64,000 nucleotides of DNA from an uncultured archaeon. GTDB lineage: Archaea; Iainarchaeota; Iainarchaeia; Iainarchaeales; VGJJ01. Location of the stretch: positions 3,308 to 67,307 of the forward strand of contig CAYHNT010000001.1 of NCBI GenBank assembly GCA_964358055.1. Reading direction: 5' to 3'. The notes under the pieces were generated by a model. The model saw nothing but the letters and a program-made list of their open reading frames with translations. It was not told where the DNA came from and ran no database searches. This document shows, piece after piece, positions 14,056-52,765 of the stretch. Positions within the stretch are counted from its first letter, which is position 1. Each line of letters opens with the position of its first letter. Position numbers and translations under genes: made by a program.

Positions 14056-14133
14056 GGGCCCGTAGCTCAGCCTGGACTTCAGAGCACTTCCGTCCTAAGG
14101 AAGGGGTCGTGGGTTCGAATCCCACCGGGCTCG
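14056..14133 (+). tRNA. tRNA-Arg (anticodon CCU), with an unusually long 13-nt D-loop
   Basis: Acceptor GGGCCCG/CGGGCTC, D-stem GCTC/GAGC, anticodon stem CTTCC/GGAAG with loop GTCCTAA, T-arm GTGGG-TTCGAAT-CCCAC. Confidence 0.6.
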
Positions 14134-30300: not shown

Positions 30301-31704
30301 GTGGCGAGTTCTCCTTCCGCACAAATTACAGTTAAGCTGACCAAGCTCGGAGATGCAAGTGGACTTTCAGGTTATTCTGAATTCCTCGAGCTTCCCTTGG
30401 ATGGCCTAATTGGTTTGGATGATTCCTCTCTGACATTCCATCGCAATGGGTACGGTACTGCTTTCACCGGACAAACCTTGGACTTAGTTCCCACTCCCGG
30501 CTTAACGTTACGAACGTATCCCAGTCAGCCCGGGCAAACGGCGTTGAACACGGTCAACGTGCCCGCGCTTCCTGCATTCAAAGAGTTGAACACGCAGAAT
30601 AGGGGTGAATTGGTGAGCTTCAACAAGAGCAGCGGAACGCTTTCCCTGCGTCCAAGTGTCCCCGCTCCCGTGTTAGGAAAATGGTCAAGCAATTCCTCAG
30701 GACAAGGACACCTATATTATGGGATTAGCGAAACTTCTTCTCAAGGCGGACAGAGCTACGTTTCTCATTCAACGGACACTGGAACACCCTTATCTAAATG
30801 GGTTCCCATTGCATCGGATTTAACCCAGAGCACATTCGGTTGCACCACCCCTAATTGTGATATTTGTTTGGATGCCGGAGGAAACGCCTTTGTTTCTTCG
30901 CTCAAGTTTGATTTAAACCCGGGAACAGGTGCATGCGGGTTACGTCCTCCTCTTACAAAAAATACGGCGTTTGGTTTTACGTCAACGGGTAGCGTGAGTA
31001 ATGAGTCGTATTTGAGTACGGTGTTCTATCGTGTCCCTGGAAATGATTATTCCATTATTTTAGGATGTAACGATTCGTCCTCCCAACAAATTGGAGCGAT
31101 TGCCACCCATTCAAGTGTGATTTCGAACGGTGGCGCATCCGTTGCGGGATTGGATTTAGGCTCGTCTTCGTTAGAGGATCAACTTGACAATGCGGTTTCG
31201 TTATACGGCATGCTTAATTTGATGGAAAGCAACTACACCTGTATCAACAACACGGCAGGCACGAGTCGCGTGTATTGGAATGCTCCGCGTTTGCGCGAGG
31301 ACTTGGCGAATGCAAAACCCTCATTTGGTCACATAGGAAATTCGTGTGTGGCAACTGGTAATCCATTAGGTGCAGCCGGAACGTTCACCTTGCTCTCCAA
31401 GAATGGAATCATTTCTCAGTCTCAAACCACGTTGGGGATGTGTCCGTTGTACAACAATAATAATGCCCAGAATGGGTATTATGCAAAACTTGGTGTGCCT
31501 TTTCCGGTTGGCACGCAGATTCGTTTCTTAGGATCAGGTGCCATTACGGATGACCCCTTGAATGGGGTGGTGCAGTATCGTTCGAATGCTACTAATTGTA
31601 CGCAGTTGACTTCATTGAATTGTCCGGGTCCAGGAACTCCGTTTGATTTTTGCTCCGCAAACACGGAAAGGTATTGGTCGGGCACTCCTGCAATTAACCC
31701 GTAA
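24400..31704 (+). CDS. Giant (2434 aa) N-terminally anchored surface protein with CarboxypepD_reg/Ig-like repeats and a vWA (MIDAS) domain
   Basis: N-terminal TM ILLALVVAILGFGLFSALAGV. Repeated G(T/K)Y.I.ASK.GY modules. DSSPS (DxSxS) at about nt 29015-29030 and MIVVTDNKPTG at about nt 29380. No C-terminal anchor. Confidence 0.75.
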   Translation: MKKNLLPSMSVLDSLKNVYFELEDKYYAFLDKLQTKLPVYSVVDPVDKILPSFGILLALVVAILGFGLFSALAGVGGGFETVVEFNDTQGNPLEGVQVSFERDGKLIETLFTKEDGSATTSVGAGTYFITASKEGYVELVEEVEINSAFTRIFTLSSATPETTQRALLIQDAQQGIVGMLSPVAISLAFSCQSGTPPSNQTVYNGNVSFLQPGDCTGLSVTISANGFLTKTQSILGDTTIVVLQSTAAFEPPPETEQPDAGSVEIIAVETGGAPLEQAQIKLYKIPSVGSNILADQGLSDPNGLSTFSNVTPGKHIVIVSKAGYKQTQSAEFQVNAGEKATLNVEVAKSSSKRKVFVKILSSANQIIVLGSSVSLFVQTAGGKYIEYESFTSDTNGIVSAPLADFNGNTQLVVTHGDFVTKILLNTGIVSEDAVSPIPILLDPLAAPGSNGSSSNAVVADVKVIDEVGLSVVNATVHLYTPDANGVLVGTLQTNTLGIARFTNLPAGTYQATASTSVGDGASPKIQGDLGKIIVLPVSLSLGNALVQVTVKDELGKVVTDANVFIYSFVENTLQSASKTNAQGLAQLGVITGQKVYVKVEKATYLPFSSVPFDVIKDNTHIIQLEVSLTSASQGVDVSLTSIYELSATQGPILAQALVPGNTYAFHFAVKTPVQQTGMKAVVRVNKDSPAAQGATDVGSIVGGSTAKGGVAFYTTYNSNDEFSPLIPADSGVPSKVALNTLGDVNGASSFEYIVNVKINPAALPNTDKLDVKFQSKGGTQVSPLYFESFTIGAPLPGQGDFSFVFFVSTQGGTKTQVSSSVPLVMFAQQDYVLDYVITNTSGSNFPSATMLLTTNTPASFTAAPNQVSLPGFNNSSSVSGSITIKSTQECSSSQTQCSTLTANLSGVGTGNSPTNYPLSIFTSPEKQLAMNITPSYLIPAQTQLVQVVVTDQLSNLAGTSKGVQVEGQLENSSGAPLGSSILFTESTNALFFASIPAASEVSQLRVTASAAGYVSDVVVLPVSNQILLNYSQDFSCVSLNPNPLSFNLGASGSLSVQTISCPEDIDLYTTGFSENSTVIQLAVKNGSNTITSSNPLSLNESESKTLSVQSPSYFGQYPLYVYAKYKSQSTYSLVKNVDVIVNPLAGSSTCLNLSKYAFDVKDGSDNATVVNNCNPGVHDAFLPRAVVNVNGVYGHAIPPVLTPEMQNPGSLVPFSYRVSMDYDNSTNLDVNHDDFPQFFTASNWNRYAITNPAKFFTLKSEFAGVTPVLINDDHYNGSDFILESPNDPQTPWAAPASVRSVLFETTFVTRNEVTLDELCFTSTNIDAILVRIDGVDVQTAHSPKCAIPNYLFSPGPHAIQIFMYAVEGQNYTLTVKYKDAPATTVGSNTGGYAPLSDGKNKGFFVSPLYGILYSNDTKKNGPLLHGPFSNGVIPSTNSVTPKYIDNVGGNIQSIIRNKAGGMEHLKQSYLHISSTNPSVRTFMHHTDAYAQYVGFDDATGQQDIVFENLGMEGEKYGLLTLTDYSLPTSASGKTLDVGILLDSSPSIILNENDETSSSSGTVYQEGLCKTLIDIKRGLEYYSNATINMQVALMHDVSDTYHASSNQAQNLPCLAQFPNITELFPGQFPGYTEGTHNLDEAWAWGAQKFASHAFWKNSTKLMIVVTDNKPTGLGNGKLTTDWQGSIEELHVNNAATELNNRGIRGVVLYKYPLESSSEANHPAGSDTKQDAVEMYELFAQQTNGFTEALDFSELINNNNPHSFDQAEYNKVAIRLLQHAFPTKQETIVVKLVSHPLDACIGENGEVGVTGSSALPKVSYNWQWGSTQQNMCDFKTNDPTNFRYCDATQFMITLTQKLFALEQAYAPGATPAQQAQIPSLTSFDVYVMRDALNDDFRNDFVEFFVNSSFTDAPAYFKSALGGAWKDYVNPAFNKLTFEIDGNPTNSIVSAGLYRAQIQVTWESDVGTFFVASSPSAQITVKLTKLGDASGLSGYSEFLELPLDGLIGLDDSSLTFHRNGYGTAFTGQTLDLVPTPGLTLRTYPSQPGQTALNTVNVPALPAFKELNTQNRGELVSFNKSSGTLSLRPSVPAPVLGKWSSNSSGQGHLYYGISETSSQGGQSYVSHSTDTGTPLSKWVPIASDLTQSTFGCTTPNCDICLDAGGNAFVSSLKFDLNPGTGACGLRPPLTKNTAFGFTSTGSVSNESYLSTVFYRVPGNDYSIILGCNDSSSQQIGAIATHSSVISNGGASVAGLDLGSSSLEDQLDNAVSLYGMLNLMESNYTCINNTAGTSRVYWNAPRLREDLANAKPSFGHIGNSCVATGNPLGAAGTFTLLSKNGIISQSQTTLGMCPLYNNNNAQNGYYAKLGVPFPVGTQIRFLGSGAITDDPLNGVVQYRSNATNCTQLTSLNCPGPGTPFDFCSANTERYWSGTPAINP

Positions 31705-43410: not shown

Positions 43411-44088
43411 ATGCCTCCTTCTTTCTCCAAAAAATCTTCTTCCCGGAAACGCGTCCCGAGTATGGGCAGAATAGGGGAGACCCTGTTGCGTCATGAGGCG
43501 AAGGGGCGCAGGCGAGACCGATCGCTAAATGAGCTGGTTCGCCTGGAAGTACTTTTTCCTGGATTTGCTGAATACCTGCGCGGAGGAGGAGGCCTCCTTA
43601 ATGATTATGGTCGGACGCTTCCACATTATGCACCCGTTCATCGTTTGCTGTTAAAATATGGCTCGGGTTTGCGTGGGAAAAAATTAGTGCACATTGCTTC
43701 CTCCCTAGGGCTCTATACCCAATTTTTACAGAGTCTTGGCGTTAAGGCCATCGGGCTTGACATGAATACGGCAGCATTAAACGTAGCAAAGAAAATAGGT
43801 AACCGTCGTGGAGTAAGAGGGGATGCACAATTTCTACCAGTACGCAATAACGCATTGGACTATGTTTTGGCTGACCATTTTCTTCTTGCCAATTATGGGC
43901 CCATCCGTGGCGTTGAGAGGGAATTTTTTGCTCAAATTCATCGTGTATTACGGCCTGGCGGCATTCTTATTGTTTCGTCTATTAGCAAGTTGGGGCTAAG
44001 AATATATCCAGACGTACTGACTGGGTTAGGTTTCAAGGTGCTTCAGCGTCCCAAAGTATATGGAAATATGGTTTTACAAAAAATATGA
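43411..44088 (+). CDS. SAM-dependent methyltransferase-like protein (degenerate motif I)
   Basis: LRPGGILIVSS is a post-I/motif II-like segment. Start chosen at the Met with TATTTATT 21 bp upstream. Low certainty. Confidence 0.4.
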   Translation: MPPSFSKKSSSRKRVPSMGRIGETLLRHEAKGRRRDRSLNELVRLEVLFPGFAEYLRGGGGLLNDYGRTLPHYAPVHRLLLKYGSGLRGKKLVHIASSLGLYTQFLQSLGVKAIGLDMNTAALNVAKKIGNRRGVRGDAQFLPVRNNALDYVLADHFLLANYGPIRGVEREFFAQIHRVLRPGGILIVSSISKLGLRIYPDVLTGLGFKVLQRPKVYGNMVLQKI

Positions 44089-44197
44089 AAAAGAGAGTAA
44101 GGTGGCGAGGCCCCATTTCCAGCATCCCAATCAAATGGTGAACCGGACTTGGAACCCCCTCCACAACCGTAAGAGGGGATTTTTTTTCGTAATCCCA

Positions 44198-46447
44198 CTA
44201 AACGCTGCAGTAGCTATACCCGCAGTCCATGCAGGTGGCGCAACCCTCTTGCATGTGGAGCTTGTTTCCTCCGCACTTCTCGCATTTCTTGGTTTCTCCC
44301 TTTGACAAGTCATGGGCCTTCATGACCTTAGCCTTGAAGTCCTCTTCCACTTGCTTGTTTGATTTTCCTTCCACGTTCAAATTGAGTACCTGGTTTTCGA
44401 ATCCCTTGCTTCCATCCCTGTAAATCGTGACACCTTTGCATCCGAGTTTGTATGCTAGCATGTACACTTCGCGCACCTCGTCTACTCCCGCGTCGTGAGA
44501 GAAATTAACGGTCTTGCTAATCGCGTTGTCCGTGTATTTCTGCCATGCTGCTTGCATGCGGAGATGCCAATAGGGGGTAATGTCATGTGCACATACGAAG
44601 ACGTTGCGCACGTCTTCAGGGATTTCAGTCAAATGATGCAATGTTCCCTGTGCAGCTATTTTTTCCATCAATTCCTCGTTATAGAATCCGCGTTTGATGG
44701 CGGCCTCTTTGAATATCTCATTCACGTACAACAATTCCTGCCCGTCCATCACGCGTTTAACGAATGAAATAGCAAACAATGGTTCGATTCCACCTGAACA
44801 ATCCGCAATCATGGAAATCGTTCCCGTGGGTGCAATCGTTATGCGTGCGCAGTTACGGAAAGTAGGCCCCTCGGGCGTGTCATAGGTGCTTCCTTTGTGG
44901 TGGAGGAAAACGCCTTTCTCTTTTCCTAACTCCTGCGACATGGCATCCGCCTCTTCGCGAATAAACTTGGCCATTTTCTCTGCAAACGAACAACCCTCTT
45001 CCGAGTTGTACGGAATGTTTAATTTAAACAACAAATCGGCCCAGCCCATGACTCCTAATCCAATGCGTCGGTTTCCCTTGTTCATGTGTTCGATTTGGGG
45101 AATCACATACTTGTTCATGTCAATCGTGTTGTCTAAGAAACGAACCGCCGTGCGAACCGTTTCGCGCAAACGAGACCATTCGACTTGTCCATCATGCGTG
45201 ACGTATTTGACGAGGTTGATGATTCCTAAATTACAAGAGTCATACGGACCCAAGGGCTGCTCTCCACAAGGATTCGTGGCTTCAATTTCGTAAATATGTG
45301 AAATGGTATTATCCCTGTTGATTCGGTCAATGAAAATGATTCCCGGATCTCCTGTTTTCCATGCACTCATCACGAGGTCTTCAAACAATAGTTTAGCGTT
45401 CTCTCGGCGCACCACCTGCTGATTGGAGGGATTGATGAGTTCGAAATCCTCATCTTTTTCAACCGCTTCCATGAACTTTTCTGTAATTGCCACGGAGATG
45501 TTGAAGTTGTTGATTTTGGTAATATCGTCCTTACAGTGAATAAATTCGTGAATATCGGGATGATCCACGCGCAGAATACCCATGTTGGCCCCGCGGCGTT
45601 TTCCTCCCTGCTTAATCACTTCAGTTGACGCGTTGTACACGGACATGAATCCCACAGGACCGGTGGCCACTCCCTTCGTGCTTTTCACAATGCTCCCTTT
45701 AGGACGAATACGTGAAAAAGAGAAACCCGTTCCTCCGCCAGACTGGTGGATTAATGCCTGGTGTTTCATCGTCTCGTAAATCGATTCCAAATTGTCCTCA
45801 ATGGGTAAAACAAAGCACGCCGATAATTGTTGCAACGGCGCCCCGGCGTTCATTAATGTGGGTGTATTGGGCATGAATTCCATTTTTTCCATCAAATGAG
45901 AAAATTGTTCAGTCCAATAGTGTACTGTTTCATCCGTTCCCCCATACTTTAATTCGGCCTGCGCAATGTTTCCTGCGACGCGCTTCCAAAGTTGTTCGGG
46001 CGTCTCCTTTACTTTTCCCACTTCGTCCTTCAACAAGTAGCGTTCCTTCAACACGCGTAATTGATTGATTCCCACATTCGTGTCGACGTTCAACCCTAAC
46101 ATCGTGCGCTTGAGGTCGCGTTCTTCGGTTCTTTTTTGTCGGTATAAAATATAGGACTTGGCTACTTTGGTTTCCCCTGTCTTCATCAATTCCTCTTCCA
46201 CAATATCTTGAACGTACTCCACGGAGGGAATGCTTTCCTCGGGGTGCTTCTCTCGTTCCTGGATCAATCGTTCCATGATGCGATCCGAGATACGCAAGGA
46301 GGTGGTTTCGTCGTCCTTTCCTGTGGCGTGGAATGCTTTGGTAATGGCGAGGGTTATTTTGTCCTGATTAAAAGAGACTACGGCCCCGTTTCTTTTTTTG
46401 ATGTTAGGGATTAATGTCTGGATTTGAGCATCATGCATATGTTCCAC
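44198..46447 (-). CDS. nrdJ: Adenosylcobalamin-dependent ribonucleotide reductase (class II, NrdJ) with N-terminal ATP-cone
   Basis: 749 aa. ATP-cone KKRNGAVVSFNQDKI. Class II core. C-terminal CEKCGG...CATCMDCGYSYC zinc-ribbon-like tail. Confidence 0.9.
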   Translation of the reverse strand: MEHMHDAQIQTLIPNIKKRNGAVVSFNQDKITLAITKAFHATGKDDETTSLRISDRIMERLIQEREKHPEESIPSVEYVQDIVEEELMKTGETKVAKSYILYRQKRTEERDLKRTMLGLNVDTNVGINQLRVLKERYLLKDEVGKVKETPEQLWKRVAGNIAQAELKYGGTDETVHYWTEQFSHLMEKMEFMPNTPTLMNAGAPLQQLSACFVLPIEDNLESIYETMKHQALIHQSGGGTGFSFSRIRPKGSIVKSTKGVATGPVGFMSVYNASTEVIKQGGKRRGANMGILRVDHPDIHEFIHCKDDITKINNFNISVAITEKFMEAVEKDEDFELINPSNQQVVRRENAKLLFEDLVMSAWKTGDPGIIFIDRINRDNTISHIYEIEATNPCGEQPLGPYDSCNLGIINLVKYVTHDGQVEWSRLRETVRTAVRFLDNTIDMNKYVIPQIEHMNKGNRRIGLGVMGWADLLFKLNIPYNSEEGCSFAEKMAKFIREEADAMSQELGKEKGVFLHHKGSTYDTPEGPTFRNCARITIAPTGTISMIADCSGGIEPLFAISFVKRVMDGQELLYVNEIFKEAAIKRGFYNEELMEKIAAQGTLHHLTEIPEDVRNVFVCAHDITPYWHLRMQAAWQKYTDNAISKTVNFSHDAGVDEVREVYMLAYKLGCKGVTIYRDGSKGFENQVLNLNVEGKSNKQVEEDFKAKVMKAHDLSKGETKKCEKCGGNKLHMQEGCATCMDCGYSYCSV

Positions 46448-46684
46448 CGCCTTCCATTTTAGGGTAAAATTGACTCTTTCTAACTCAACGCTTACTTTCT
46501 TTTTAATTCCAAGAGAAAATTTTTTTCTCCGGCGCGGATTGGGAATACTCCTGACGCTTGGAGAGTATTAAAACATATTTCAGGCCCCCAAATTTCCAAC
46601 CCATTCACGCAAACAAGGGAGTTAGCGCGCATTGTTGGACGCGCGCACGAACCTCCTTTAAGTACATCCTTTCTTTTTGGAAGA

Positions 46685-47632
46685 ATGGCCCCCTTTTCTG
46701 CCCGATTGCTTGAACGATACAAGGAACTCCTTCCTGAAAAAGAAGACTATGATTCCTTCCTCAGCGTCTCTAAAACGCGTTGGCCCAAAACCATCCGCAC
46801 CAACACCCTCAAGGCAAACGATGAGTGGATTGAGTCGCGTCTCCGCGAGCGTGGCATTTCCTATGAACGGCACCCCTCCATTCCTCACGCCTTTACCTTG
46901 CACCAGCTTTCCGTGCTCCTGGGTGGACTTTGGGAGACCCAACAAGGGTTCTGGCAGCCCCAAGAACTCTCCTCTCAACTCCCTCCCTTCGTACTCAAGC
47001 CCCTCCCGGGAGAGCGCGTACTGGATATGGCTGCGGCGCCCGGTAACAAAACCATTCAGCTTGCTTCCGCGATGAAGAATACTGGACAGCTGGTGGCCTG
47101 CGAGCCCAACAAAGAAAGGGCAAAGGCATTGCGTTTTGTTCTAGGAAAAGGAGGCGTGTCAAACGCAGGGGTGGCGTTACAAGACGCGTTAACGCTTCCT
47201 GAATCATTGATGTTCGATAAAATTTTGTTGGATGCCCCGTGCTCCGGGGAAGGGCTCCTGCGTAAGAAACCCCAGACGTTGAAAAGCTGGTCCGAAAAAT
47301 ACGTGGTGCACAAAGCGCAGCTCCAAACGAAGCTCATACTAAAAGCCGCGGATTTGTTGAAAGAAGGCGGAGAAATGGTGTACAGCGTATGCACGCTTTC
47401 CCCGGAAGAATGCGAGGGCGTACTCACCACGCTTTTACATGAGCGAAAAGAAATGAAACTGACGGACATTGATTTATTCGGACTCAAAACGCGCCCCGGC
47501 TTGAGCGCGTTTCGTAATCGGACATTCAGTAAGGGCATGGAAAAGACCCATCGTATTTATCCCCAAGATAATAACACCCAATCCTTTTTCATTGCCGCAC
47601 TCAAAAAAACAAAAAGTGAGGGAGCCAAATGA
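46685..47632 (+). CDS. NOL1/NOP2/Sun-family RNA (cytosine-C5) methyltransferase
   Basis: VLDMAAAPGNKT (motif I), LLDAPCSGEG (motif IV with PC), and a TC-containing motif near the C-terminus. Confidence 0.85.
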   Translation: MAPFSARLLERYKELLPEKEDYDSFLSVSKTRWPKTIRTNTLKANDEWIESRLRERGISYERHPSIPHAFTLHQLSVLLGGLWETQQGFWQPQELSSQLPPFVLKPLPGERVLDMAAAPGNKTIQLASAMKNTGQLVACEPNKERAKALRFVLGKGGVSNAGVALQDALTLPESLMFDKILLDAPCSGEGLLRKKPQTLKSWSEKYVVHKAQLQTKLILKAADLLKEGGEMVYSVCTLSPEECEGVLTTLLHERKEMKLTDIDLFGLKTRPGLSAFRNRTFSKGMEKTHRIYPQDNNTQSFFIAALKKTKSEGAK

Positions 47633-48102
47633 AAATCACGTTTTGCACGCCGGAAGAAAAAAAGCGATACGTGAATTATTTAGTTTCACGATATGGGATT
47701 TCTATTTCCATACTAAATGAGTGTGCGTGGATCACGTATGGGTTGAGCGTATTTATGATTAGTAAGACATGGGAGAAAATTCTAATTGAAAAAGAACTCA
47801 ATCTTTTTTCAGTAGGAATCCAAGCGTTCACGAATGGCAAGGAATTCCAACCCACCGCCAATTTTATTACACTCATGGGAGAACATATTACGCAAAACTG
47901 CATGGAATTGCCCGAAGGAAAGCTACTGTCTTTCTTTCAGGGGAAAAGCCTCTCTAAAACGGAAGCCAAATCCATTCGTGTTCTTTCCGACGGCTGGGTA
48001 GCGGTTTCATCTAAAGGAAAAGTCGTGGGTTCCGCTTCCCTGAAAGGAAACCATTTAATTCCCAATCTCCCGGGGCATGTTCATGCAAGCGAAAGCGAGT
48101 AA
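47629..48102 (+). CDS. Putative PUA-like RNA-binding protein, a stand-alone partner of the Nop2/Sun MTase
   Basis: ATGA overlap with the MTase stop. C-terminal GWVAVSSKGKVVGSASLKGNHLIPNL is PUA-like. Confidence 0.35.
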   Translation: MKITFCTPEEKKRYVNYLVSRYGISISILNECAWITYGLSVFMISKTWEKILIEKELNLFSVGIQAFTNGKEFQPTANFITLMGEHITQNCMELPEGKLLSFFQGKSLSKTEAKSIRVLSDGWVAVSSKGKVVGSASLKGNHLIPNLPGHVHASESE

Positions 48103-48730
48103 AAAAACAAAAGCAAAAATCCCTCCTACGAAAGGAGAGCGTCCCTTTTGGTTAGTCTTAGACGTTCACGGCGTACTGATTCAAAGTTCGGAGCGCTGGA
48201 TCATGACCTTGCTCTCCAAGCGCACGCACCAGCCTAAATGGTTGATGTATCTGCGATGGATGGCCAATATTCGTTTGGCACAGAAAGGAAAGATGCAGGC
48301 CAAAGCGTTTTACGAAAAAGTATTGGACCAAAAACTAACGCAGAAAGAATTCAATGAATGGGTGATGAAGGGATACGCCATGCGCGGAGACATTCCTTTT
48401 CTTATCATGAAAGAATTGATACGATTGAAAAAAGAAGGATGGAAGCTCGCCATTCTCTCGGATATGAATACAGCACAGGCAGAGTTTCATCGTAACAAAA
48501 AACATTTTTCTATTTTTGATGAGGTATTCATTTCCTGCGAAACGGGATTGATGAAGCCTTATCCGGGTGCTTTTTCTGCATTTGAAAAACGACTCAAAAC
48601 GAGGAAGGACCACATTGTGTTCTGCGATGACTTGTGGTTCAATTCCTTCGGTGCAATGTTGCATGGATGGAGAGCCGTCACCATCAAAGGACATAAGCAA
48701 TTGGAACATTTCCTCAAAGATCTACACTAG
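48077..48730 (+). CDS. HAD-like hydrolase with atypical motif I (DxH instead of DxD)
   Basis: VLDVHGVL (motif I variant), ILSD (II), GLMKPYP (III Lys), FCDD (IV). Confidence 0.5.
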   Translation: MFMQAKASKKTKAKIPPTKGERPFWLVLDVHGVLIQSSERWIMTLLSKRTHQPKWLMYLRWMANIRLAQKGKMQAKAFYEKVLDQKLTQKEFNEWVMKGYAMRGDIPFLIMKELIRLKKEGWKLAILSDMNTAQAEFHRNKKHFSIFDEVFISCETGLMKPYPGAFSAFEKRLKTRKDHIVFCDDLWFNSFGAMLHGWRAVTIKGHKQLEHFLKDLH

Positions 48731-48788
48731 TCCTTTTTTTAGGACGAACAACCCATACCTGGTATCGTTTTAGTGGAGCGTGATTGTA

Positions 48789-48983
48789 ATGGTTCGTATT
48801 GTAATGAAAACAGCCCATGGTCCGGTGGAAGTAAAGGTAGGCGATGAGAGCAAATGGATCTGTCAATGCGGACTCACCACGAATCCACCCTTTTGCAGCG
48901 GAATGCACAAGAAAACACTGGATGAGAAAGAAGGAAAAGTGTACGTGTATCACCCCGATGGAACACGTACGGAATTAGCGTAA
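48789..48983 (+). CDS. CDGSH-type iron-sulfur domain protein (variant CSGMH)
   Basis: CQCGLTTNPPFCSGMH fits C-x-C-x2-(S/T)-x3-P-x-C-D-G-(S/A/T)-H with D replaced by S. Confidence 0.5.
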   Translation: MVRIVMKTAHGPVEVKVGDESKWICQCGLTTNPPFCSGMHKKTLDEKEGKVYVYHPDGTRTELA

Positions 48984-48987
48984 ATTT

Positions 48988-49548
48988 TTACTTGCGGTGC
49001 TTCTGCACCGTAGTATTCATTTTTTCTCTATGTGCATCGCTGGGCTTCTCAATGAGCGTGTTGATTTTCCAGTATTTGTTTTGATGATACGCCAGTGATT
49101 CTTTTTCAAACGCCTGACCATGAACCACTTCCCCAACAAACAAATGATGGTCGCCGTGTTTGACAATGTCGATCAGTTTGCATTCTGCATGCAGTGAACT
49201 TCCTTCCACTAATTGCACGTCCAACTTTTTTCCTTTCGTAAACGTAACGCCTAATTCTTCAAGCGCAGAAACTTTCTTTACGTCTTTCCCGCTGCTGTCC
49301 CCAGCAATGGAGGAAACCCAATTTTGATCTTCGGCGGCCAAACTTACTCCGAACATTTTGGTTTCTACAATGTTTTCGGCCGTGGCTTTATGGGGGCCAA
49401 TTGAGACCACTATAATCGCAGGAGAATAACTCGTCAAATAGGTCCATTCGGCCGCCATGATATTCCTTCCATGAGTGCCGTTGCTCGTGATCAACCCCAC
49501 ATTCGTGACAAACTTTTGATGATATTCGCTTCCCCAGGGAAAATCCAT
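48988..49548 (-). CDS. Flavin reductase-like (FMN-binding split-barrel) protein
   Basis: 186 aa. AAEWTYLTSYSPAIIVVSIG...HHLFVGEVVHGQAF matches the Flavin_Reduct family. Confidence 0.7.
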   Translation of the reverse strand: MDFPWGSEYHQKFVTNVGLITSNGTHGRNIMAAEWTYLTSYSPAIIVVSIGPHKATAENIVETKMFGVSLAAEDQNWVSSIAGDSSGKDVKKVSALEELGVTFTKGKKLDVQLVEGSSLHAECKLIDIVKHGDHHLFVGEVVHGQAFEKESLAYHQNKYWKINTLIEKPSDAHREKMNTTVQKHRK

Positions 49549-49943
49549 TTTTTTTCACGCTCCACTAAGAAGTAGGTATCGGACATACGATATTAAAAAG
49601 AGATTCGGCAACCCGTTATAAAAAGTCAAACGTATGTTTGGTGTATGACTGATAAATTACAAAAAAAAGCAAGAAAAAAAATCAATAAGAAACCGAAAAG
49701 TATGTTCGGAGTTTTGAAAGGAAAATTGGGTCCTTTTACGCGCGAAGACAGATGGAACGATCGAGAATGACTTAGTGCTAATTTCCCCCCTGTTTGATAG
49801 TTCAACCACTTAACCATTCCTTGGCTTTTTTTCATCGCGTTTGATTTCGAAAAGTGGTATTTTTTCACGGAACTTTAGCTTCCAAAGCTTTTTATTTCGC
49901 AATTATTATATACGTGTTCCCACATAAGTGCTATGTGGTGTTT

Positions 49944-50192
49944 ATGCCGAATATGACCCTCTCCTTCCCACCTGAAACGAAGAAGCGTATGGAACAGCAT
50001 CCGCATGTGCGCTGGTCAAATGTAGTACGTACTATCATTGAACAAAAATTAGACGATTTTGAGGAAGCGGAGCGACTGGCTAAAAAGAGCCGCTTAACTC
50101 AAAAGGATGTGGATGAACTTACTGCAAAGGTGAATCAGGGCATGCGGAAGCGCGCGGAGGCGATGTTGCATGAACATCACCGTCGACGCTAA
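49944..50192 (+). CDS. vapB: Putative VapB-like antitoxin (RHH/CopG-like)
   Basis: 83 aa overlapping the PIN gene by 23 nt. Charged helical C-terminus. A 7-bp inverted repeat (49920-49938) lies 6 nt upstream of the ATG. Confidence 0.4.
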   Translation: MPNMTLSFPPETKKRMEQHPHVRWSNVVRTIIEQKLDDFEEAERLAKKSRLTQKDVDELTAKVNQGMRKRAEAMLHEHHRRR

Positions 50193-50580
50193 TGTTCTCT
50201 TTTCAGCACTCTTGAAAGATAGCGGTACTCGTCATCTCTGGTTTAATCCGGAGTTCACCTTATTTGCCCCCGCTTATTTGCGGATCGAATTCACCAAATA
50301 TGAAGGGGAATTGCGCAGAAAATTTACAGGCACGGATAAGGAATTTATAGAATGGGCTGCCAAATTCTTTGCACAAATCCGATTTATTCAAGATGAAGAG
50401 TTAGCCCCCTTTCTTCCGGCAGCCGCTTCTCTGATTCATGATCCTAAAGACTGGCTTTATTTGGCATGTGCACTAAAGGAAAATACCATTATTTGGAGCC
50501 AGGATAAAGGATTCAAAGAACAGAAACGAATTTCGATAAAAACGACGAACGAATTGATGGAAGAATTTGGAGGACTTTGA
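50170..50580 (+). CDS. vapC: PIN-domain ribonuclease (VapC-like toxin)
   Basis: MNITVDANVLFSAL with conserved Asp6, later DPKD and SQDKGF acidic residues. 136 aa. Confidence 0.6.
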   Translation: MNITVDANVLFSALLKDSGTRHLWFNPEFTLFAPAYLRIEFTKYEGELRRKFTGTDKEFIEWAAKFFAQIRFIQDEELAPFLPAAASLIHDPKDWLYLACALKENTIIWSQDKGFKEQKRISIKTTNELMEEFGGL

Positions 50581-50669
50581 GAAGGTCACGAATGAACACT
50601 TAAAAGGGAAAAATACGGTACAATTGCGTTGAGAATTATCTTTCAATTCCTTTTTTATGTCGCTTATTT

Positions 50670-51644
50670 TCAGGTTGTCGTATTTTCCCAATGTAAATTT
50701 TTAATTGGTCTTTTTTCGGCCATATCAAACCATTCCCGGAAGAAATCAGCCGTGCTATCACCTCTATTGGCGAGAAGAATATTGCCTCCAAAAATACGTC
50801 GAATTCGGCTTACTGCAGTGTTGTCATTTCCTTTGCATGTTCCAAATATTTCCTTACCTAAATAGTCAGCGATGTTCAACCGCTCCATGTTTAATTTATG
50901 GTATCCAAATCCAATGAAGCAGATGACATCAGCATCTTTTAATGCGAGCTGAGCTCTTTCAAATTCGCTAAATCTATCATCCTCTTCATGGATTACTCTA
51001 ATCCCCTGATATGCGCTCTTTATCGCAGGAAGCTGTTCTTCAATGGTTATCGGCCAACCATATTCTCTGCCGTTCTCTTCCTGCCAATCGAGAGGTCCAA
51101 GCTTTCCATGTACATGTATGATTGGAATATTTTTTAGTTTTTCTTCGCATTTTTCTTTCGTCATTTTCTGGGACGAGTGCATCAGTGCTTGATGGAGGAA
51201 GTGTTCAAGGGAACGGTCGTAATTGAACGTGATTATTGATATGTTGCTATTGTTGAAATTTTCGGGCCCATCCTTATTGAATTCTCTAAAGAGCGTGCTG
51301 TAAAATTGCGATTTTTTGCTGAGATCTGTATCTCTTTCTCTTTTCATTAAGATTGCGGCGATGCATGCTTTTCCCATTTCAGCATAGTCTGGGAATTCTT
51401 TCAGATATGCGTCGATAGAAGTTTCTTGTGAGAATCGAAGTGATTCCCTGAATGGCGCCATTTTGTGAGAATCAGTATCGAACTCAAGTTTTTCTAGGTA
51501 TTTGATGAGGCTTCCGTTTGGGTCTATCCCTTCTTGGATTTCTTTCTTGACTGCATCTCCAGTAGGATAACTTAAATCCGCACTGACTCCTGCCCCCAGA
51601 ACAAGTGTTAATTTTCGTTGAACCATTCTTCTCTCTCCATGCAC
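50670..51644 (-). CDS. Stand-alone SIR2-like (SIR2_2 family) protein, a putative NADase/defence effector
   Basis: KLTLVLGAGVS, IITFNYDRSLEHFL and IIHVHGKLG correspond to the GAGxS / TxNYD / HG motifs of the SIR2_2 family. Confidence 0.55.
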   Translation of the reverse strand: MHGERRMVQRKLTLVLGAGVSADLSYPTGDAVKKEIQEGIDPNGSLIKYLEKLEFDTDSHKMAPFRESLRFSQETSIDAYLKEFPDYAEMGKACIAAILMKRERDTDLSKKSQFYSTLFREFNKDGPENFNNSNISIITFNYDRSLEHFLHQALMHSSQKMTKEKCEEKLKNIPIIHVHGKLGPLDWQEENGREYGWPITIEEQLPAIKSAYQGIRVIHEEDDRFSEFERAQLALKDADVICFIGFGYHKLNMERLNIADYLGKEIFGTCKGNDNTAVSRIRRIFGGNILLANRGDSTADFFREWFDMAEKRPIKNLHWENTTT

Positions 51645-51695
51645 TTTGAAGTAATCTCCTACAGCATAACGGGAGACGTATCGAAAGTCAACTAG

Positions 51696-51769
51696 TGCAC
51701 CGGGGAGGATTTGAACCTCCGACCTTCCGATTATCAGTCGGATGCTCTACCAGGCTAAGCTACCAGTGC
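51696..51769 (-). tRNA. tRNA-Ile (anticodon GAU)
   Basis: Hand-folded: acceptor GCACTGG/CCGGTGC (one G-U), anticodon stem TCCGA/TCGGA with loop CTGATAA, T-arm GGAGG-TTCAAAT-CCTCC. Confidence 0.85.
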
Positions 51770-51826
51770 GTCTAGCAAAGATGGCAATGGAATGCTTTTA
51801 AAGACTCTTTTGGGGGCAACCATCAT

Positions 51827-52765
51827 ATGAGCATTGTAAAGTATGCCGGTCTCCGTCTCTCTTCCCCTGCCGTATTAGCCCCCATGTCAGGTGTTTCGAC
51901 GTTGCCCTTTCGTTTACTCTGTAAAGAGCTGGGCGCCGGTTTAACGTACACCGAATTTGCCTCGGCCATTGCCATTGCGCGAAACCTCGCAAATAGGGCG
52001 AGCAATAATAAGGTGTTTGCGCGCGTGGAAACCGTGAAAGAGGAACATCCTGTCGGGGTGCAGTTGTTTGCTCCCAATGAAAAAGACTTGGGAACGGCCA
52101 TCGAATACGTCGAGAAAGATTTTGATTTGGTGGACATTAATTTCGGCTGCCCTTCCCCTAAAATTACAGGAGGGGGGTGCGGGGCGTTCTTGTTGAGAGA
52201 ACCGGAGAAACTTATTTCACTCATTAAAGCCGCCGTGTCCGTTTCGAGCAAGCCCGTGACGTGCAAGTTACGCATGGGCTGGGACAAGCCCGTATTGCAT
52301 GAGTTTGTGGAAAAAATCCAGGACGCAGGAGTGCAGGGAATCGCAGTGCATGCACGCACAGCATTGCAAGGATATAGCGGTAAGGCCGATTGGGAATACA
52401 TCAAAAAAATAAAATCACTCATCAGCATTCCTGTAATTGGAAATGGAGACATTGGAAATGCAAACGATCTGTTTGATAAAATTCAAAATAATTACTGCGA
52501 TGTGGTCATGGTGGGAAGAGCCGCGTGGAATAATCCAAGTATTTTTTCCGAAGTAGCCGGGTTAAACGTTCCCTCACGAAATGAAGTATTGCAAAAATAT
52601 TTTTCATTGTGCCAAAAACATCCTGTTACGGATTTAATCGATGTCAAGGCACAAGTTTCAGGAATTTTTTCCGGAATGCCCAATGCGAAGAAAGTACGGG
52701 TTGAAATGATGCAGGCCCAGAGTTTGGAAAACGTTCAGGCGATTGCATTGGGAAATGTGATATAG
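51827..52765 (+). CDS. dus: tRNA-dihydrouridine synthase (Dus family, FMN-dependent)
   Basis: VLAPMSGVSTLPFR, INFGCPSPKI, and the GxxAxxxG and KxR regions typical of Dus. Confidence 0.8.
   Translation: MSIVKYAGLRLSSPAVLAPMSGVSTLPFRLLCKELGAGLTYTEFASAIAIARNLANRASNNKVFARVETVKEEHPVGVQLFAPNEKDLGTAIEYVEKDFDLVDINFGCPSPKITGGGCGAFLLREPEKLISLIKAAVSVSSKPVTCKLRMGWDKPVLHEFVEKIQDAGVQGIAVHARTALQGYSGKADWEYIKKIKSLISIPVIGNGDIGNANDLFDKIQNNYCDVVMVGRAAWNNPSIFSEVAGLNVPSRNEVLQKYFSLCQKHPVTDLIDVKAQVSGIFSGMPNAKKVRVEMMQAQSLENVQAIALGNVI

What the first reader, a model, noticed from the sequence alone, without database searches (positions are those of the whole stretch)
49549..51769. tRNA-Ile-adjacent islet: stand-alone SIR2_2-like protein, VapBC pair and a 395-bp AT-rich spacer
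Directly downstream of tRNA-Ile(GAU) lies a 324-aa protein with the GAGxS / TxNYD / HG motifs of the SIR2_2 family. This is the NADase module of Thoeris ThsA, DSR and SIR2-HerA/pAgo defence systems, but here it has no fused or adjacent partner domain. It is convergent with a PIN-domain toxin gene that overlaps a small antitoxin-like gene. The islet is bounded by an unusually long, A/T-rich non-coding stretch (49549-49943). A tRNA 3' flank plus TA and defence-like genes is the classic signature of an integrated accessory islet. A solitary SIR2_2 protein could be a minimal NAD+-depleting defence or toxin element whose sensor is encoded elsewhere or is intrinsic.
Basis: partly seen in the sequence, partly recalled or inferred. 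Interest (0 to 1): 0.6.

Follow-up and report, generated by a model that had tools for sequence, protein, structure and literature searches.

The report
Solitary mini-SIR2 gene beside archaeal tRNA-Ile
Next to a tRNA-Ile gene in a tiny groundwater archaeon lies a variable genome slot holding a toxin-antitoxin pair and a foreign, partner-less 318-residue SIR2 enzyme; the enzyme belongs to a very large untested family that may be the smallest self-contained NAD-destroying immune or suicide protein.

Summary
tRNA-Ile(GAU) lies at 51695-51769(-). A SIR2-like ORF sits 68 nt downstream at 50670-51626(-); it is 318 aa, since the ATG start is better supported than the GTG that gives 324 aa. A convergent RHH-antitoxin/PIN_2 pair lies at 49944-50580(+). 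The 395-bp stretch has 35.7% GC.

The host is a DPANN archaeon (Diapherotrites). In eight relatives the flanking genes are syntenic, but the space before tRNA-Ile differs in every genome, and none carries the SIR2 gene.

The slot is a mosaic, not an integrase-built island: there is no integrase and no tRNA repeat. The "spacer" is not empty. It holds a relic of an older AbrB-type vapB, kept as a 41-codon ORF, and the TATA/operator region of the present TA operon. A 50-nt relic of the old vapC follows the PIN_2 gene. The SIR2 gene is a ~1-kb single-gene insert with aberrant GC3.

The protein has an intact SIR2 active site (GAGVS, N135/D137, H171) and no Zn ribbon. It folds most like defence-type SIR2 NADases (SIR2-HerA, ThsA, KomC). 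Its family has at least 6,380 clusters of ~300-aa single-domain proteins, with no conserved neighbour in 78 loci.

The likeliest reading is an autoinhibited NAD+-cleaving effector. Defence-island association is weak and the activity is untested.

The parts
51695..51769 (-). tRNA-Ile(GAU). It is the conserved right-hand anchor of the variable slot. Homology to relatives resumes at 51680-51696.
   Evidence: ARAGORN; Rfam 73.2 bits; 89-99% identical to the tRNA in L082-L088.
50670..51626 (-). Stand-alone SIR2-like ('sirim'-type) protein of 318 aa; an alternative GTG at 51644 gives 324 aa. The active-site residues G11-A12-G13, N135, D137 and H171 are intact. There is no Zn ribbon and no extra domain.
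   Evidence: GC3 is 0.379, against 0.44-0.57 in flanking core genes.
50645..51679 (.). Approximate extent of the single-gene SIR2 insert. It is bounded on the left by the vapC relic and on the right by sequence homologous to relative L087 (tRNA plus 15 nt).
   Evidence: blastn of the window against L086/L087; alignments.
50594..50644 (+). Relic of the 3' end of an older PF01850-type vapC (PIN) gene. It reads '..EHLKGKNTVQLR*' and corresponds to the end of the intact PIN genes of L086/L087.
   Evidence: blastn 80.8% over 52 nt, E=5e-6, and 84.6% over 39 nt; alignment; tblastn 77% over 13 aa.
50170..50580 (+). PIN_2-domain toxin (VapC-like), 136 aa. The four acidic PIN positions D6, E40, D91/D94 and D112 are invariant in the family.
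   Evidence: Pfam PF10130, E=3e-21; 126 homologues, all about 136 aa, in Diapherotrites and Micrarchaeota; alignment.
49944..50192 (+). 82-aa antitoxin-like gene (RHH-type VapB) that overlaps the PIN_2 start by 23 nt.
   Evidence: NCBIfam Sulfolobales VapB, E=1.5e-5, below cut-off. The upstream genes of PIN_2 homologues are annotated RHH_12. The N-terminus MPNMTLSF is the same in L119.
49878..49943 (+). Promoter/operator region of the RHH-PIN_2 operon. It has an A/T-rich TATA-like box (TTATTATATA, about 49905-49914) and a perfect 7-bp inverted repeat CCACATA-N5-TATGTGG (49920-49938) just before the ATG.
   Evidence: The inverted repeat was flagged. The same TATA-palindrome-ATG layout is seen in L119 and L120. 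Cassette homology to L119 starts at 49878. The function is inferred.
49645..49770 (+). 41-codon ORF. Its last 24 codons (49699-49770, 'MFGVLKGKLGPFTREDRWNDRE') are the C-terminal toxin-binding tail of an AbrB-type VapB that is intact in L086, L087 and L119. The N-terminal DNA-binding domain is lost, so this is a relic or a micro-antitoxin.
   Evidence: tblastn 71-75% identity to L086/L087, E=4e-10 to 5e-8; L082; L119; substitutions fall mostly at third codon positions.
49549..49602 (.). Conserved 5' flank of the flavin-reductase gene (48988-49548, minus strand). This is the left-hand end of synteny with relatives.
   Evidence: blastn homology to L082 and L088 runs to 49602 and 49598.

Best explanation
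The stretch 49603-51692 is lineage-specific filling of a hypervariable slot in a DPANN (Diapherotrites/Iainarchaeota) archaeal chromosome. The slot lies between the flavin-reductase gene and tRNA-Ile. It is a mosaic built by successive small gene replacements, with three layers.

(a) Relics of an ancestral AbrB-type vapBC pair.

(b) An intact, autoregulated RHH-antitoxin/PIN_2-toxin operon of a type native to DPANN archaea.

(c) A single-gene insert of about 1 kb that looks compositionally foreign. It encodes a 318-aa stand-alone SIR2 protein of the immune ('sirim', SIR2_2-like) branch.

This protein consists of little more than the catalytic domain. It belongs to a very large, uncharacterised, horizontally scattered family of ~300-aa single-domain proteins that never has a conserved partner gene.

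Most likely mechanism (inferred): the protein binds NAD+ through the GAGxS/N135/D137/H171 pocket and cleaves it to ADP-ribose and nicotinamide. It is kept auto-inhibited in resting cells, probably as an oligomer, as the SIR2 subunit of SIR2-HerA is. A change of assembly state, triggered directly by a viral or stress cue, switches it on. The result is NAD+ depletion with growth arrest or abortive infection.

Shown: gene, fold, intact catalytic residues, absence of the Zn ribbon, solitary architecture, accessory and foreign status.

Inferred: NADase activity, autoinhibition, the trigger, and an immune role.
For: Host and slot:
- Dus homologues of 65-80% identity are named Diapherotrites. Fibrillarin, Nop and NMD3 are encoded in the window.
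- RNR-RsmB-156aa-HAD ... tRNA-Ile-Dus-MTase is syntenic in relatives. The content before tRNA-Ile differs in every one. L082 has a RelE-like gene; L083 has Fic; L084 has an AAA_33 gene. L085 has two unknown genes; L086/L087 have AbrB-VapB plus PIN; L088 has a 247-aa gene plus a RelE-like gene. L119 has a ~5-kb set of seven genes including RHH-PIN_2.
- Window homology stops at 49602 and resumes at 51680-51696.

SIR2 is foreign and unique here:
- Its only >90% cluster member is itself, and the next best hit is 42% identical.
- GC3 is 0.379, against 0.44-0.57 in the core genes.

Fold and active site:
- AF2 pLDDT is 88.5.
- Foldseek ranks KomC, SIR2-HerA, DSR2 and ThsA before CobB and SIRT2.
- The profile hits KomC in the PDB at E=2e-5.
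- The invariant residues are GAG, N135, D137 and H171. There is no CxxC.

Family autonomy:
- The family has 11,949 50%-identity clusters at E<=1e-3 and 6,380 at E<=1e-30. The best 150 are nearly all 295-345 aa and matched end to end.
- 341 loci occur in 185,579 species genomes across many phyla, including CPR bacteria and one Methanobacteriaceae archaeon.
- No conserved neighbouring protein, no conserved small ORF and no conserved flanking DNA were found.
- No HerA, TIR, Kom or pAgo model appears among the PADLOC families listed for 49 large ORFs of the window (25 of 29 matched families shown).

Precedents:
- The SIR2 subunit of SIR2-HerA is an auto-inhibited dodecamer (PMC11472057).
- Filament assembly activates ThsA and Avs5 SIR2 domains (abstracts listed).
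- A single-protein 'sole-Sir2' cleaves NAD+ to ADPR, and a close homologue protects E. coli against T2 and T4 (bioRxiv 10.1101/2024.12.27.630466).
- All known antiphage SIR2 proteins fall in the Zn-less 'sirim' clade (bioRxiv 10.1101/2024.09.18.613514).
Against: - No enzymatic or phenotypic data exist for any member of this family.
- Association with defence genes is weak. Among 147 immediate neighbours only a handful are RM or TIR genes. The 114 next-but-one neighbours are mostly housekeeping.
- The family is nearly absent from plasmids and absent from isolated phages, so mobility is inferred only from patchy distribution.
- There is no sensor domain. How a catalytic-domain-only protein would detect infection is unexplained.
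- Pfam SIR2_2 is below its gathering score. TM-scores to solved SIR2 structures are only 0.4-0.56.
- No archaeal TATA-like element is evident in the 68 nt between the tRNA and the start codon. Expression in this host is therefore unverified and may depend on read-through from the tRNA.
Confidence: 0.5

Rival explanations
1. The protein is a non-immune NAD-dependent enzyme. It could be a protein or small-molecule ADP-ribosyltransferase, a deacylase or a metabolic regulator. In that case it would be an ordinary accessory gene that happens to share the Zn-less SIR2_2 fold.
Against: There is no Zn-binding Cys tetrad, which sirtuins use to hold protein substrates (bioRxiv 10.1101/2024.09.18.613514). 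The closest structures are all antiphage NADases. Distribution is very patchy, at 341 loci in 185,579 species, and the gene is absent from all 8 close relatives of the host. Both patterns fit an accessory conflict gene better than a metabolic one.
Confidence: 0.2
2. The protein is an orphan effector that needs a sensor or signal generator encoded elsewhere in the genome. Candidates are a TIR/ThsB-like cyclase, a HerA-like ATPase, or a nucleotide-modifying enzyme as in Kongming. The protein would be only the NADase arm of a split system.
For: Every characterised small SIR2 polypeptide works with partners: KomC with KomA/B, and SIR2 with HerA (PMC11472057). TIR-domain genes are immediate neighbours in 2 of 78 loci. 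Only 64 kb of the genome could be inspected.
Against: No partner-like gene appears among the PADLOC families listed for the window's 49 large ORFs. No recurring neighbour was found in 78 loci across many phyla. Systems that travel by horizontal transfer normally keep their parts linked. A ~1-kb single-gene insert would be useless on arrival if it needed a partner.
Confidence: 0.15
3. SIR2 and the adjacent RHH-PIN_2 pair form one functional three-gene unit, for example with the antitoxin or the PIN toxin controlling the NADase.
For: The genes are physically adjacent, with 89 nt between the convergent stop codons.
Against: The RHH-PIN_2 pair occurs without SIR2 in L119 and L120 and across DPANN. 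SIR2 homologues occur without PIN neighbours in 78 loci. The genes are convergent, so they are not co-transcribed. A relic of an older vapC separates them.
Confidence: 0.03
4. The whole 2.2-kb stretch is a classical genomic islet that was integrated as one piece into the 3' end of tRNA-Ile by a site-specific recombinase.
For: It sits at a tRNA 3' flank, its content varies among relatives, and its G+C is low.
Against: There is no integrase in or near the slot. No direct repeat of the tRNA 3' end was found: one match in the window, the tRNA itself, and local alignment no better than shuffles. The parts have different histories. The vapBC relics are shared with L086/L087. The RHH-PIN_2 cassette is shared with L119 at 71% nucleotide identity. 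SIR2 is unique to this genome.
Confidence: 0.03

Closest known systems
SIR2 subunit of the SIR2-HerA (Nezha / GAO_19) antiphage system (PsSIR2, PDB 8w9l; E. coli 8j4u, 8sub)
   Different: No HerA gene lies next to the window gene or next to any of 78 homologues. The window protein is shorter, at 318 aa against 360-400 aa. Sequence similarity is undetectable by HMMER at E<=1.
KomC, the SIR2 NADase of the Kongming system (PDB 8zsf, 9v0g)
   Different: KomC works in a three-gene operon with KomA and KomB and is switched on by a modified nucleotide (bioRxiv 10.1101/2024.12.20.629578). No such neighbours exist here.
Thoeris ThsA (SIR2-SLOG), DSR1/DSR2 and 'sole-Sir2' single-protein SIR2 defences
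   Different: Each of those carries a sensor or ligand-binding part: SLOG in ThsA, a ~700-aa C-terminal domain in DSR2, and an N-terminal domain in the ~440-aa sole-Sir2. The window protein and its family are about 300 aa with nothing beyond the SIR2 domain.
Vertebrate FAM118A/B (SIRal), filament-forming non-canonical sirtuins
   Different: The structural score is lower than for the bacterial defence SIR2s. They are eukaryotic, and no specific sequence relationship was found.
Archaeal VapBC type II toxin-antitoxin modules (for the neighbouring pair)
   Same: The pair has a PIN-domain toxin with all four acidic residues. A small antitoxin gene overlaps it upstream. An inverted repeat lies between the TATA-like box and the start codon, and this layout is conserved in three loci.
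   Different: The toxin is of the PIN_2 (PF10130) type, paired with an RHH_12-type partner. The family is unusually uniform: 136 aa and 50-74% identity across two DPANN phyla. No toxicity data exist.

Membership tests
SIR2 superfamily, Zn-less 'sirim' / SIR2_2-like branch | SIR2-type Rossmann fold with a helical insert after strand 1 | tested here: met
SIR2 superfamily, Zn-less 'sirim' / SIR2_2-like branch | NAD-binding GAGxS motif, with catalytic Asn/Asp (N-x-D) and His | tested here: met
   G11-A12-G13, N135, D137 and H171 are invariant in 27 family members, including the window protein.
SIR2 superfamily, Zn-less 'sirim' / SIR2_2-like branch | Absence of the four-Cys Zn-binding module | tested here: met
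   The Cys residues are at 88, 160, 236 and 264 only, with no CxxC. Residues 12-125 are all helical in the model.
SIR2 superfamily, Zn-less 'sirim' / SIR2_2-like branch | Seven or more strands in the central sheet (criterion from bioRxiv 10.1101/2024.09.18.613514) | tested here: inconclusive
   DSSP gives six strands of at least 3 residues, plus short extra strand segments near residues 174-187 and 300-307. Sheet membership was not checked in 3D.
SIR2 superfamily, Zn-less 'sirim' / SIR2_2-like branch | Pfam PF13289 (SIR2_2) gathering score | tested here: not met
   The score is 17.9 bits against a cut-off of 24.5, E=0.0035, with only profile positions 2-54 matched. Several homologues do carry the precomputed PF13289 label.
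SIR2 superfamily, Zn-less 'sirim' / SIR2_2-like branch | NAD+ glycohydrolase activity | not testable with these tools
   This needs a biochemical assay.
SIR2-HerA (Nezha) | Adjacent HerA ATPase gene | tested here: not met
   No Pfam family recurs in more than 3 of 147 flanking genes. No HerA model appears among the listed PADLOC matches of the window's 49 large ORFs.
Thoeris (ThsA/ThsB) | SLOG or Macro ligand-binding domain on the SIR2 protein, and a TIR (ThsB) gene alongside | tested here: not met
   The protein is 318 aa and the SIR2 domain fills it. TIR neighbours occur in only 2 of 78 loci and none is in the window.
Kongming (KomABC) | Operon with KomA and KomB | tested here: not met
   The flanks are a tRNA gene and a convergent PIN gene. 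There is no conserved neighbour family-wide.
DSR1/DSR2/sole-Sir2 single-protein SIR2 defences | A large non-SIR2 sensor region fused to the SIR2 domain | tested here: not met
   Family lengths are 295-330 aa (5th-95th percentile). The best 150 representatives are matched end to end. The rare longer members carry no recognisable domain.
Canonical sirtuin deacylases (CobB/SIRT) | Zn ribbon with two CxxC pairs and the GAGIS...FR / TQNID / HG motifs | tested here: not met
VapBC type II toxin-antitoxin | PIN-domain toxin with conserved acidic residues, preceded by a small overlapping antitoxin gene | tested here: met
   PF10130 matches at E=3e-21. D6, E40, D91, D94 and D112 are invariant. The overlap is 23 nt. 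The RHH_12 partner is seen in homologous loci.
VapBC type II toxin-antitoxin | Toxicity neutralised by the antitoxin; autoregulation at an operator | not testable with these tools
   A conserved palindrome before the start codon in W, L119 and L120 is consistent with this but is not proof.
tRNA-integrated genomic island | Integrase gene and a direct repeat of the tRNA 3' end at the distal border | tested here: not met
   There is no integrase among the ORFs. The tRNA 3' 23-mer with up to 3 mismatches occurs once, in the tRNA itself. Local alignment is no better than shuffles.
tRNA-integrated genomic island | Content variable among close relatives while the flanks stay syntenic | tested here: met
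   Eight relatives have eight different contents.

The most novel reading that the evidence does not exclude
The ~300-aa family is a self-sufficient, single-domain immune NADase. The SIR2 catalytic domain itself, perhaps through the family-specific invariant S70-x-D72 / G85-K86 / E97 surface of its helical insert, would sense a viral protein or an infection-derived metabolite. It would then switch on by changing its assembly state. That would make it the smallest autonomous NAD+-depleting defence protein known, widespread in uncultured bacteria. Here it would also be a horizontally acquired antiviral effector in a DPANN archaeon.
Probability: 0.2. Interest if true: 0.7.

Novelty: new variant of a known kind. 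Interest (0 to 1): 0.45.

Why it matters
SIR2 NADases are among the commonest executioners of prokaryotic immunity. Every characterised one is coupled to a sensor, either a fused domain or a partner gene. This locus points to a family of at least about 6,000 sequence clusters of catalytic-domain-only SIR2 proteins. The family has no partner, is missed by Pfam thresholds and NCBIfam, and is almost absent from cultured model organisms.

If these proteins are autonomous immune or suicide enzymes, they would show how little protein is needed to sense and respond. They would also add a defence gene to DPANN archaea, whose antiviral repertoire is poorly known.

Independently of function, the locus is a clear example of gene turnover in a reduced archaeal genome. 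Accessory genes change by small cassette replacements in one hotspot next to a tRNA gene. These replacements leave datable relics of earlier toxin-antitoxin genes, and no recombinase gene is present.

Tried and rejected
- Direct repeat of the tRNA-Ile 3' end (att site). Repeat search in 44000-52000, 23-mer search with 3 mismatches and local alignment against shuffles found nothing.
- Conserved partner protein. All-vs-all BLAST of +-4 neighbours in 78 loci at E=1e-5 and E=1e-2 gave no cluster spanning more than 5 loci and none at a fixed position.
- Conserved small ORFs (25-110 aa) or conserved flank DNA or RNA next to homologues: none.
- Domain fusions in longer family members: none recognisable.
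- Known ncRNA or stable structure in the spacer: Rfam found only the tRNA. The fold z-score of 49771-49943 is 0.14.
- A sigma-70-like promoter (TTGACT-17-TATGCT) between the tRNA and SIR2 looked attractive as a sign of bacterial origin. Such sites are not more frequent than in shuffles (7 found against 5.2 +- 2.2 expected), and the host is archaeal. I dropped it.
- Phage or plasmid carriage: no hit in isolated phages, one weak plasmid hit, and 3 close plus 27 distant hits in IMG/VR. This neither supports nor excludes mobility.
- The exact-match look-up of the window's Dus protein failed. Relatives were reached through a homology search instead.
- The afdb50 fold library was unavailable. The BFVD viral library gave only giant-virus sirtuins at E of about 1e-3.
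- PIN_2, VapB and the 41-aa ORF were scanned against NCBIfam and Pfam. The two small proteins gave only sub-threshold hits.
Full report
**1. What is at the coordinates**

ARAGORN and Rfam place tRNA-Ile(GAU) at 51695-51769 on the minus strand. An ORF begins 68 nt downstream on the same strand and ends at 50670.

- The mechanical ORF list gives a GTG start at 51644, for 324 aa.
- The ATG at 51626 gives 318 aa and is the better start. It is preceded by GGAGAGAG. The public gene call P0001 is 318 aa. All 26 aligned homologues begin at that residue.

A PIN_2-domain gene lies convergent to it at 50170-50580(+) (Pfam E=3e-21). Its start overlaps by 23 nt an 82-codon gene at 49944-50192.

The stretch 49549-49943 has 35.7% G+C. 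That is in the lowest 2% of 395-nt windows of this 44.8%-GC sequence. An independent 1,756-bp ENA assembly from the same Hainich groundwater sample (0.1 um fraction) shows the same SIR2/PIN/antitoxin junction.

**2. Host and genomic setting**

The neighbouring Dus protein has about 35 homologues of 65-80% identity. Those that carry a name are labelled Candidatus Diapherotrites. The window also encodes fibrillarin, Nop and NMD3. The host is a DPANN archaeon.

I fetched the Dus locus of seven relatives (L082-L088). An eighth relative, L119, came from a PIN_2 homologue. The conserved gene order is:

- RNR - RsmB/F methyltransferase - 156-aa gene - HAD hydrolase - (flavin reductase) - [slot] - tRNA-Ile - Dus - methyltransferase - ... 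- M3 peptidase - ABC transporter.

The content of the slot differs in every genome:

| Locus | Slot content |
|---|---|
| L082 | micro-ORF plus a RelE-like gene |
| L083 | Fic plus a 103-aa gene |
| L084 | an AAA_33 kinase-like gene |
| L085 | two unknown genes |
| L086 | AbrB-type VapB plus PF01850 PIN, and a membrane protein |
| L087 | AbrB-type VapB plus a shortened PIN |
| L088 | a 247-aa gene plus a RelE-like gene |
| L119 | seven genes spanning about 5 kb (orphan AbrB-type VapB, NUDIX, RHH-PIN_2, HIT, two unknown genes, ATP-grasp) |

By blastn, window homology to relatives ends at 49598-49602 and resumes at 51680-51696. None of the eight relatives carries the SIR2 gene. The accessory, variable nature of the locus is shown.

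**3. The slot is a mosaic, not an integrated island**

There is no integrase among the ORFs. No copy of the tRNA 3' end occurs anywhere in the window. Instead the stretch carries layered remains.

(i) Relic of an older vapB.
- The last 24 codons of a 41-codon ORF (49645-49770) read MFGVLKGKLGPFTREDRWNDRE.
- They are 71-75% identical to the C-terminal tail of the intact 66-67-aa AbrB-type VapB of L086, L087 and L119.
- The N-terminal DNA-binding half is gone.
- L082 has the same tail-only ORF, and the differences fall mostly at third codon positions.

(ii) Relic of an older vapC.
- Positions 50594-50644 match the last codons and stop of the L086/L087 PF01850 PIN gene ('EHLKGKNT..LR*').
- The matches are 81-85% nucleotide identity, E=5e-6 and E=1.7e-5.

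(iii) The present TA cassette.
- Between these two relics lies 49878-50580, which holds the promoter region, the 82-aa gene and PIN_2.
- It is 71% identical at nucleotide level to the corresponding cassette of L119. That is about the divergence of core genes (65-77%). The module is therefore probably an old resident of this lineage's slot.

(iv) The SIR2 insert.
- About 50645-51679 is unique to this genome.
- Its GC3 of 0.379 is the lowest of the compared genes apart from the 41-codon relic ORF. Core genes lie at 0.44-0.57.

So the 'AT-rich spacer' consists of the flavin-reductase upstream region, a vapB relic, about 100 nt of unassigned sequence, and the regulatory region of the TA operon.

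**4. The TA pair**

- The PIN_2 protein has 126 homologues. Nearly all are exactly 136 aa and 47-74% identical, and those that are named come from Diapherotrites and Micrarchaeota.
- D6, E40, D91, D94 and D112 are invariant.
- In both homologous loci that I inspected, an RHH_12-type gene overlaps the PIN_2 start.
- The window's 82-aa protein matches Sulfolobales VapB only below threshold. It shares its N-terminus, MPNMTLSF, with L119.
- Upstream, an A/T-rich TATA-like box is followed by a perfect inverted repeat CCACATA-N5-TATGTGG (49920-49938) and then the ATG. The same layout occurs in L119 and L120.
- I read this as a promoter plus antitoxin operator. This is an inference.

**5. The SIR2-like protein**

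Sequence:
- Pfam SIR2_2 is sub-threshold at 17.9 bits against 24.5.
- A PADLOC 'SIR2' model aligns residues 6-249 at E=6e-7.
- NCBIfam has nothing.
- A profile of 27 family members hits only KomC-type chains (8zsf/8zsi/9xvc; 9v0g/9v12) among PDB sequences, best E=2e-5 for KomC 8zsf.

Structure:
- The AlphaFold2 model is confident, with pLDDT 88.5 and pTM 0.88.
- Canonical sirtuins follow at 9.9-13.0, and human FAM118B scores 12.5.
- Foldseek gives the same order, with TM-scores of only 0.4-0.56.

Active site:
- G11-A12-G13, N135, D137 and H171 are invariant.
- There is no Zn-binding Cys tetrad. Residues 12-125 are helical.
- These are the features that a published phylogeny uses to separate immune 'sirims' from sirtuins (bioRxiv 10.1101/2024.09.18.613514).

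Other invariant residues have no assigned role. They are S70, D72, G85, E97, R138 and S139, and F237, G239, F240 and G241 of the FxGFG motif. The last group aligns with the final Rossmann strand and loop of KomC.

**6. The family**

- An exhaustive profile search finds 11,949 50%-identity clusters at E<=1e-3 and 6,380 at E<=1e-30. The best 150 are almost all 295-345 aa and are matched from first to last residue.
- In one-genome-per-species GTDB there are 341 loci. The 80 listed include Planctomycetota, Acidobacteriota, Chloroflexota, Bacteroidota, Desulfobacterota, Omnitrophota and CPR groups. They also include one Methanobacteriaceae archaeon and one cultured strain, Desulfatibacillum alkenivorans DSM 16219.
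- Crude gene calling and all-vs-all BLAST of up to four neighbours on each side in 78 loci found no conserved partner.
- Pfam scans of 147 immediate and 114 next neighbours show no family in more than 3 loci.
- There are no conserved small ORFs or flank sequences.
- Longer members carry no recognisable extra domain.
- Immediate neighbours include a few type IIG/ISP RM enzymes, TIR proteins, IetA and PDC candidates. Most neighbours are housekeeping genes, so defence-island association is weak at best.
- The family is absent from isolated phages and nearly absent from plasmids. It is rare in IMG/VR, with 3 loci at 33-35% identity.
- No HerA, TIR, KomA/B or pAgo model appears among the PADLOC families listed for the 49 larger ORFs of the window (25 of 29 matched families shown).

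**7. Mechanism**

Shown: an intact SIR2 NAD pocket in a protein that is essentially only that domain. The gene is solitary, horizontally scattered, and newly arrived in this archaeon.

Inferred from established knowledge of the nearest systems:
- Zn-less SIR2 domains of SIR2-HerA, ThsA, DSR2, Avs5 and KomC cleave NAD+ and cause abortive infection.
- They are held inactive and are switched on by changes of oligomeric state. The apo SIR2 of SIR2-HerA is an auto-inhibited dodecamer (PMC11472057). ThsA and Avs5 form filaments (abstracts).
- A single-protein 'sole-Sir2' cleaves NAD+ to ADPR, and a homologue protects against T2 and T4. That protein is ~440 aa with an extra N-terminal part (bioRxiv 10.1101/2024.12.27.630466).

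I therefore favour an auto-inhibited, assembly-controlled NADase that acts alone, with confidence about 0.5.

The main rivals are:
- a non-immune NAD-dependent enzyme (0.2), favoured by the ordinary neighbourhoods;
- a split system with a partner encoded elsewhere (0.15).

A functional link to the neighbouring TA pair, and a one-piece integrase-mediated island, are both contradicted by the comparative data.

**8. Novelty and verdict**

The components are of known kinds: a SIR2 effector, a VapBC-like TA pair, and a tRNA-adjacent hotspot. Two things are not described in the sources I could search:
- the very large family of catalytic-domain-only, partner-less SIR2 proteins;
- its presence as a single-gene insert in a DPANN archaeon.

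I rate it a new variant of a known kind, with interest 0.45. It is a well-defined, testable candidate rather than a surprise. Its immune role rests on analogy.

Noticed in passing
window 14056-14133 (+): Rfam finds a third tRNA (54.8 bits, 78 nt) that ARAGORN does not report. The sequence has a longer-than-usual anticodon region, so it may be an intron-containing or otherwise atypical archaeal tRNA.
   Followed up: partly
window 24400-31704 (+): A single 2,434-aa ORF, very large for a small DPANN genome. I did not analyse it individually.
   Followed up: no
L082 6087-6575 and L088 3424-3741: In two relatives the slot carries a RelE/ParE-like 105-113-aa gene; the two copies are 80% identical to each other. 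In L082 it is preceded by the same tail-only remnant of the AbrB-type VapB seen in the window. The vapB tail therefore persists next to unrelated toxins. It may be retained for a reason, such as a promoter or a micro-antitoxin, or it may simply be a slow-decaying relic.
   Followed up: partly
L119 2888-3091: An intact 67-aa AbrB-type VapB has no PIN gene beside it; a NUDIX gene on the other strand follows immediately. It is an orphan antitoxin in the same slot.
   Followed up: partly
L084 313-3786: The class II ribonucleotide reductase of this relative carries an intein with a LAGLIDADG endonuclease (1,157 aa). The window's orthologue (44198-46447, 749 aa) has none. blastn shows the window sequence joining exactly across the insertion point (45267-45269).
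   Followed up: partly
window 50170-50580 and homologues: The PIN_2 protein family is strikingly uniform: nearly every member is exactly 136 aa, with 47-74% identity across Diapherotrites and Micrarchaeota. That is more like a conserved lineage gene than a typical fast-evolving TA toxin. Its cellular role may go beyond addiction.
   Followed up: partly
window 48780-48983 (+): A 67-aa CDGSH iron-sulfur protein gene lies between the HAD hydrolase and the flavin reductase. No gene was called at that position in the relatives inspected, so it looks like another small lineage-specific insertion just outside the slot.
   Followed up: no
window, 49 large ORFs: PADLOC models 'mad2' (4 ORFs), 'mad3', DpdF, Csa3/CARF and BrxH/DrmD-like helicase models match proteins elsewhere in the window. 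Most are probably generic methyltransferase, helicase or ATPase similarities. A Csa3/CARF-like regulator in a DPANN genome might merit a look.
   Followed up: no
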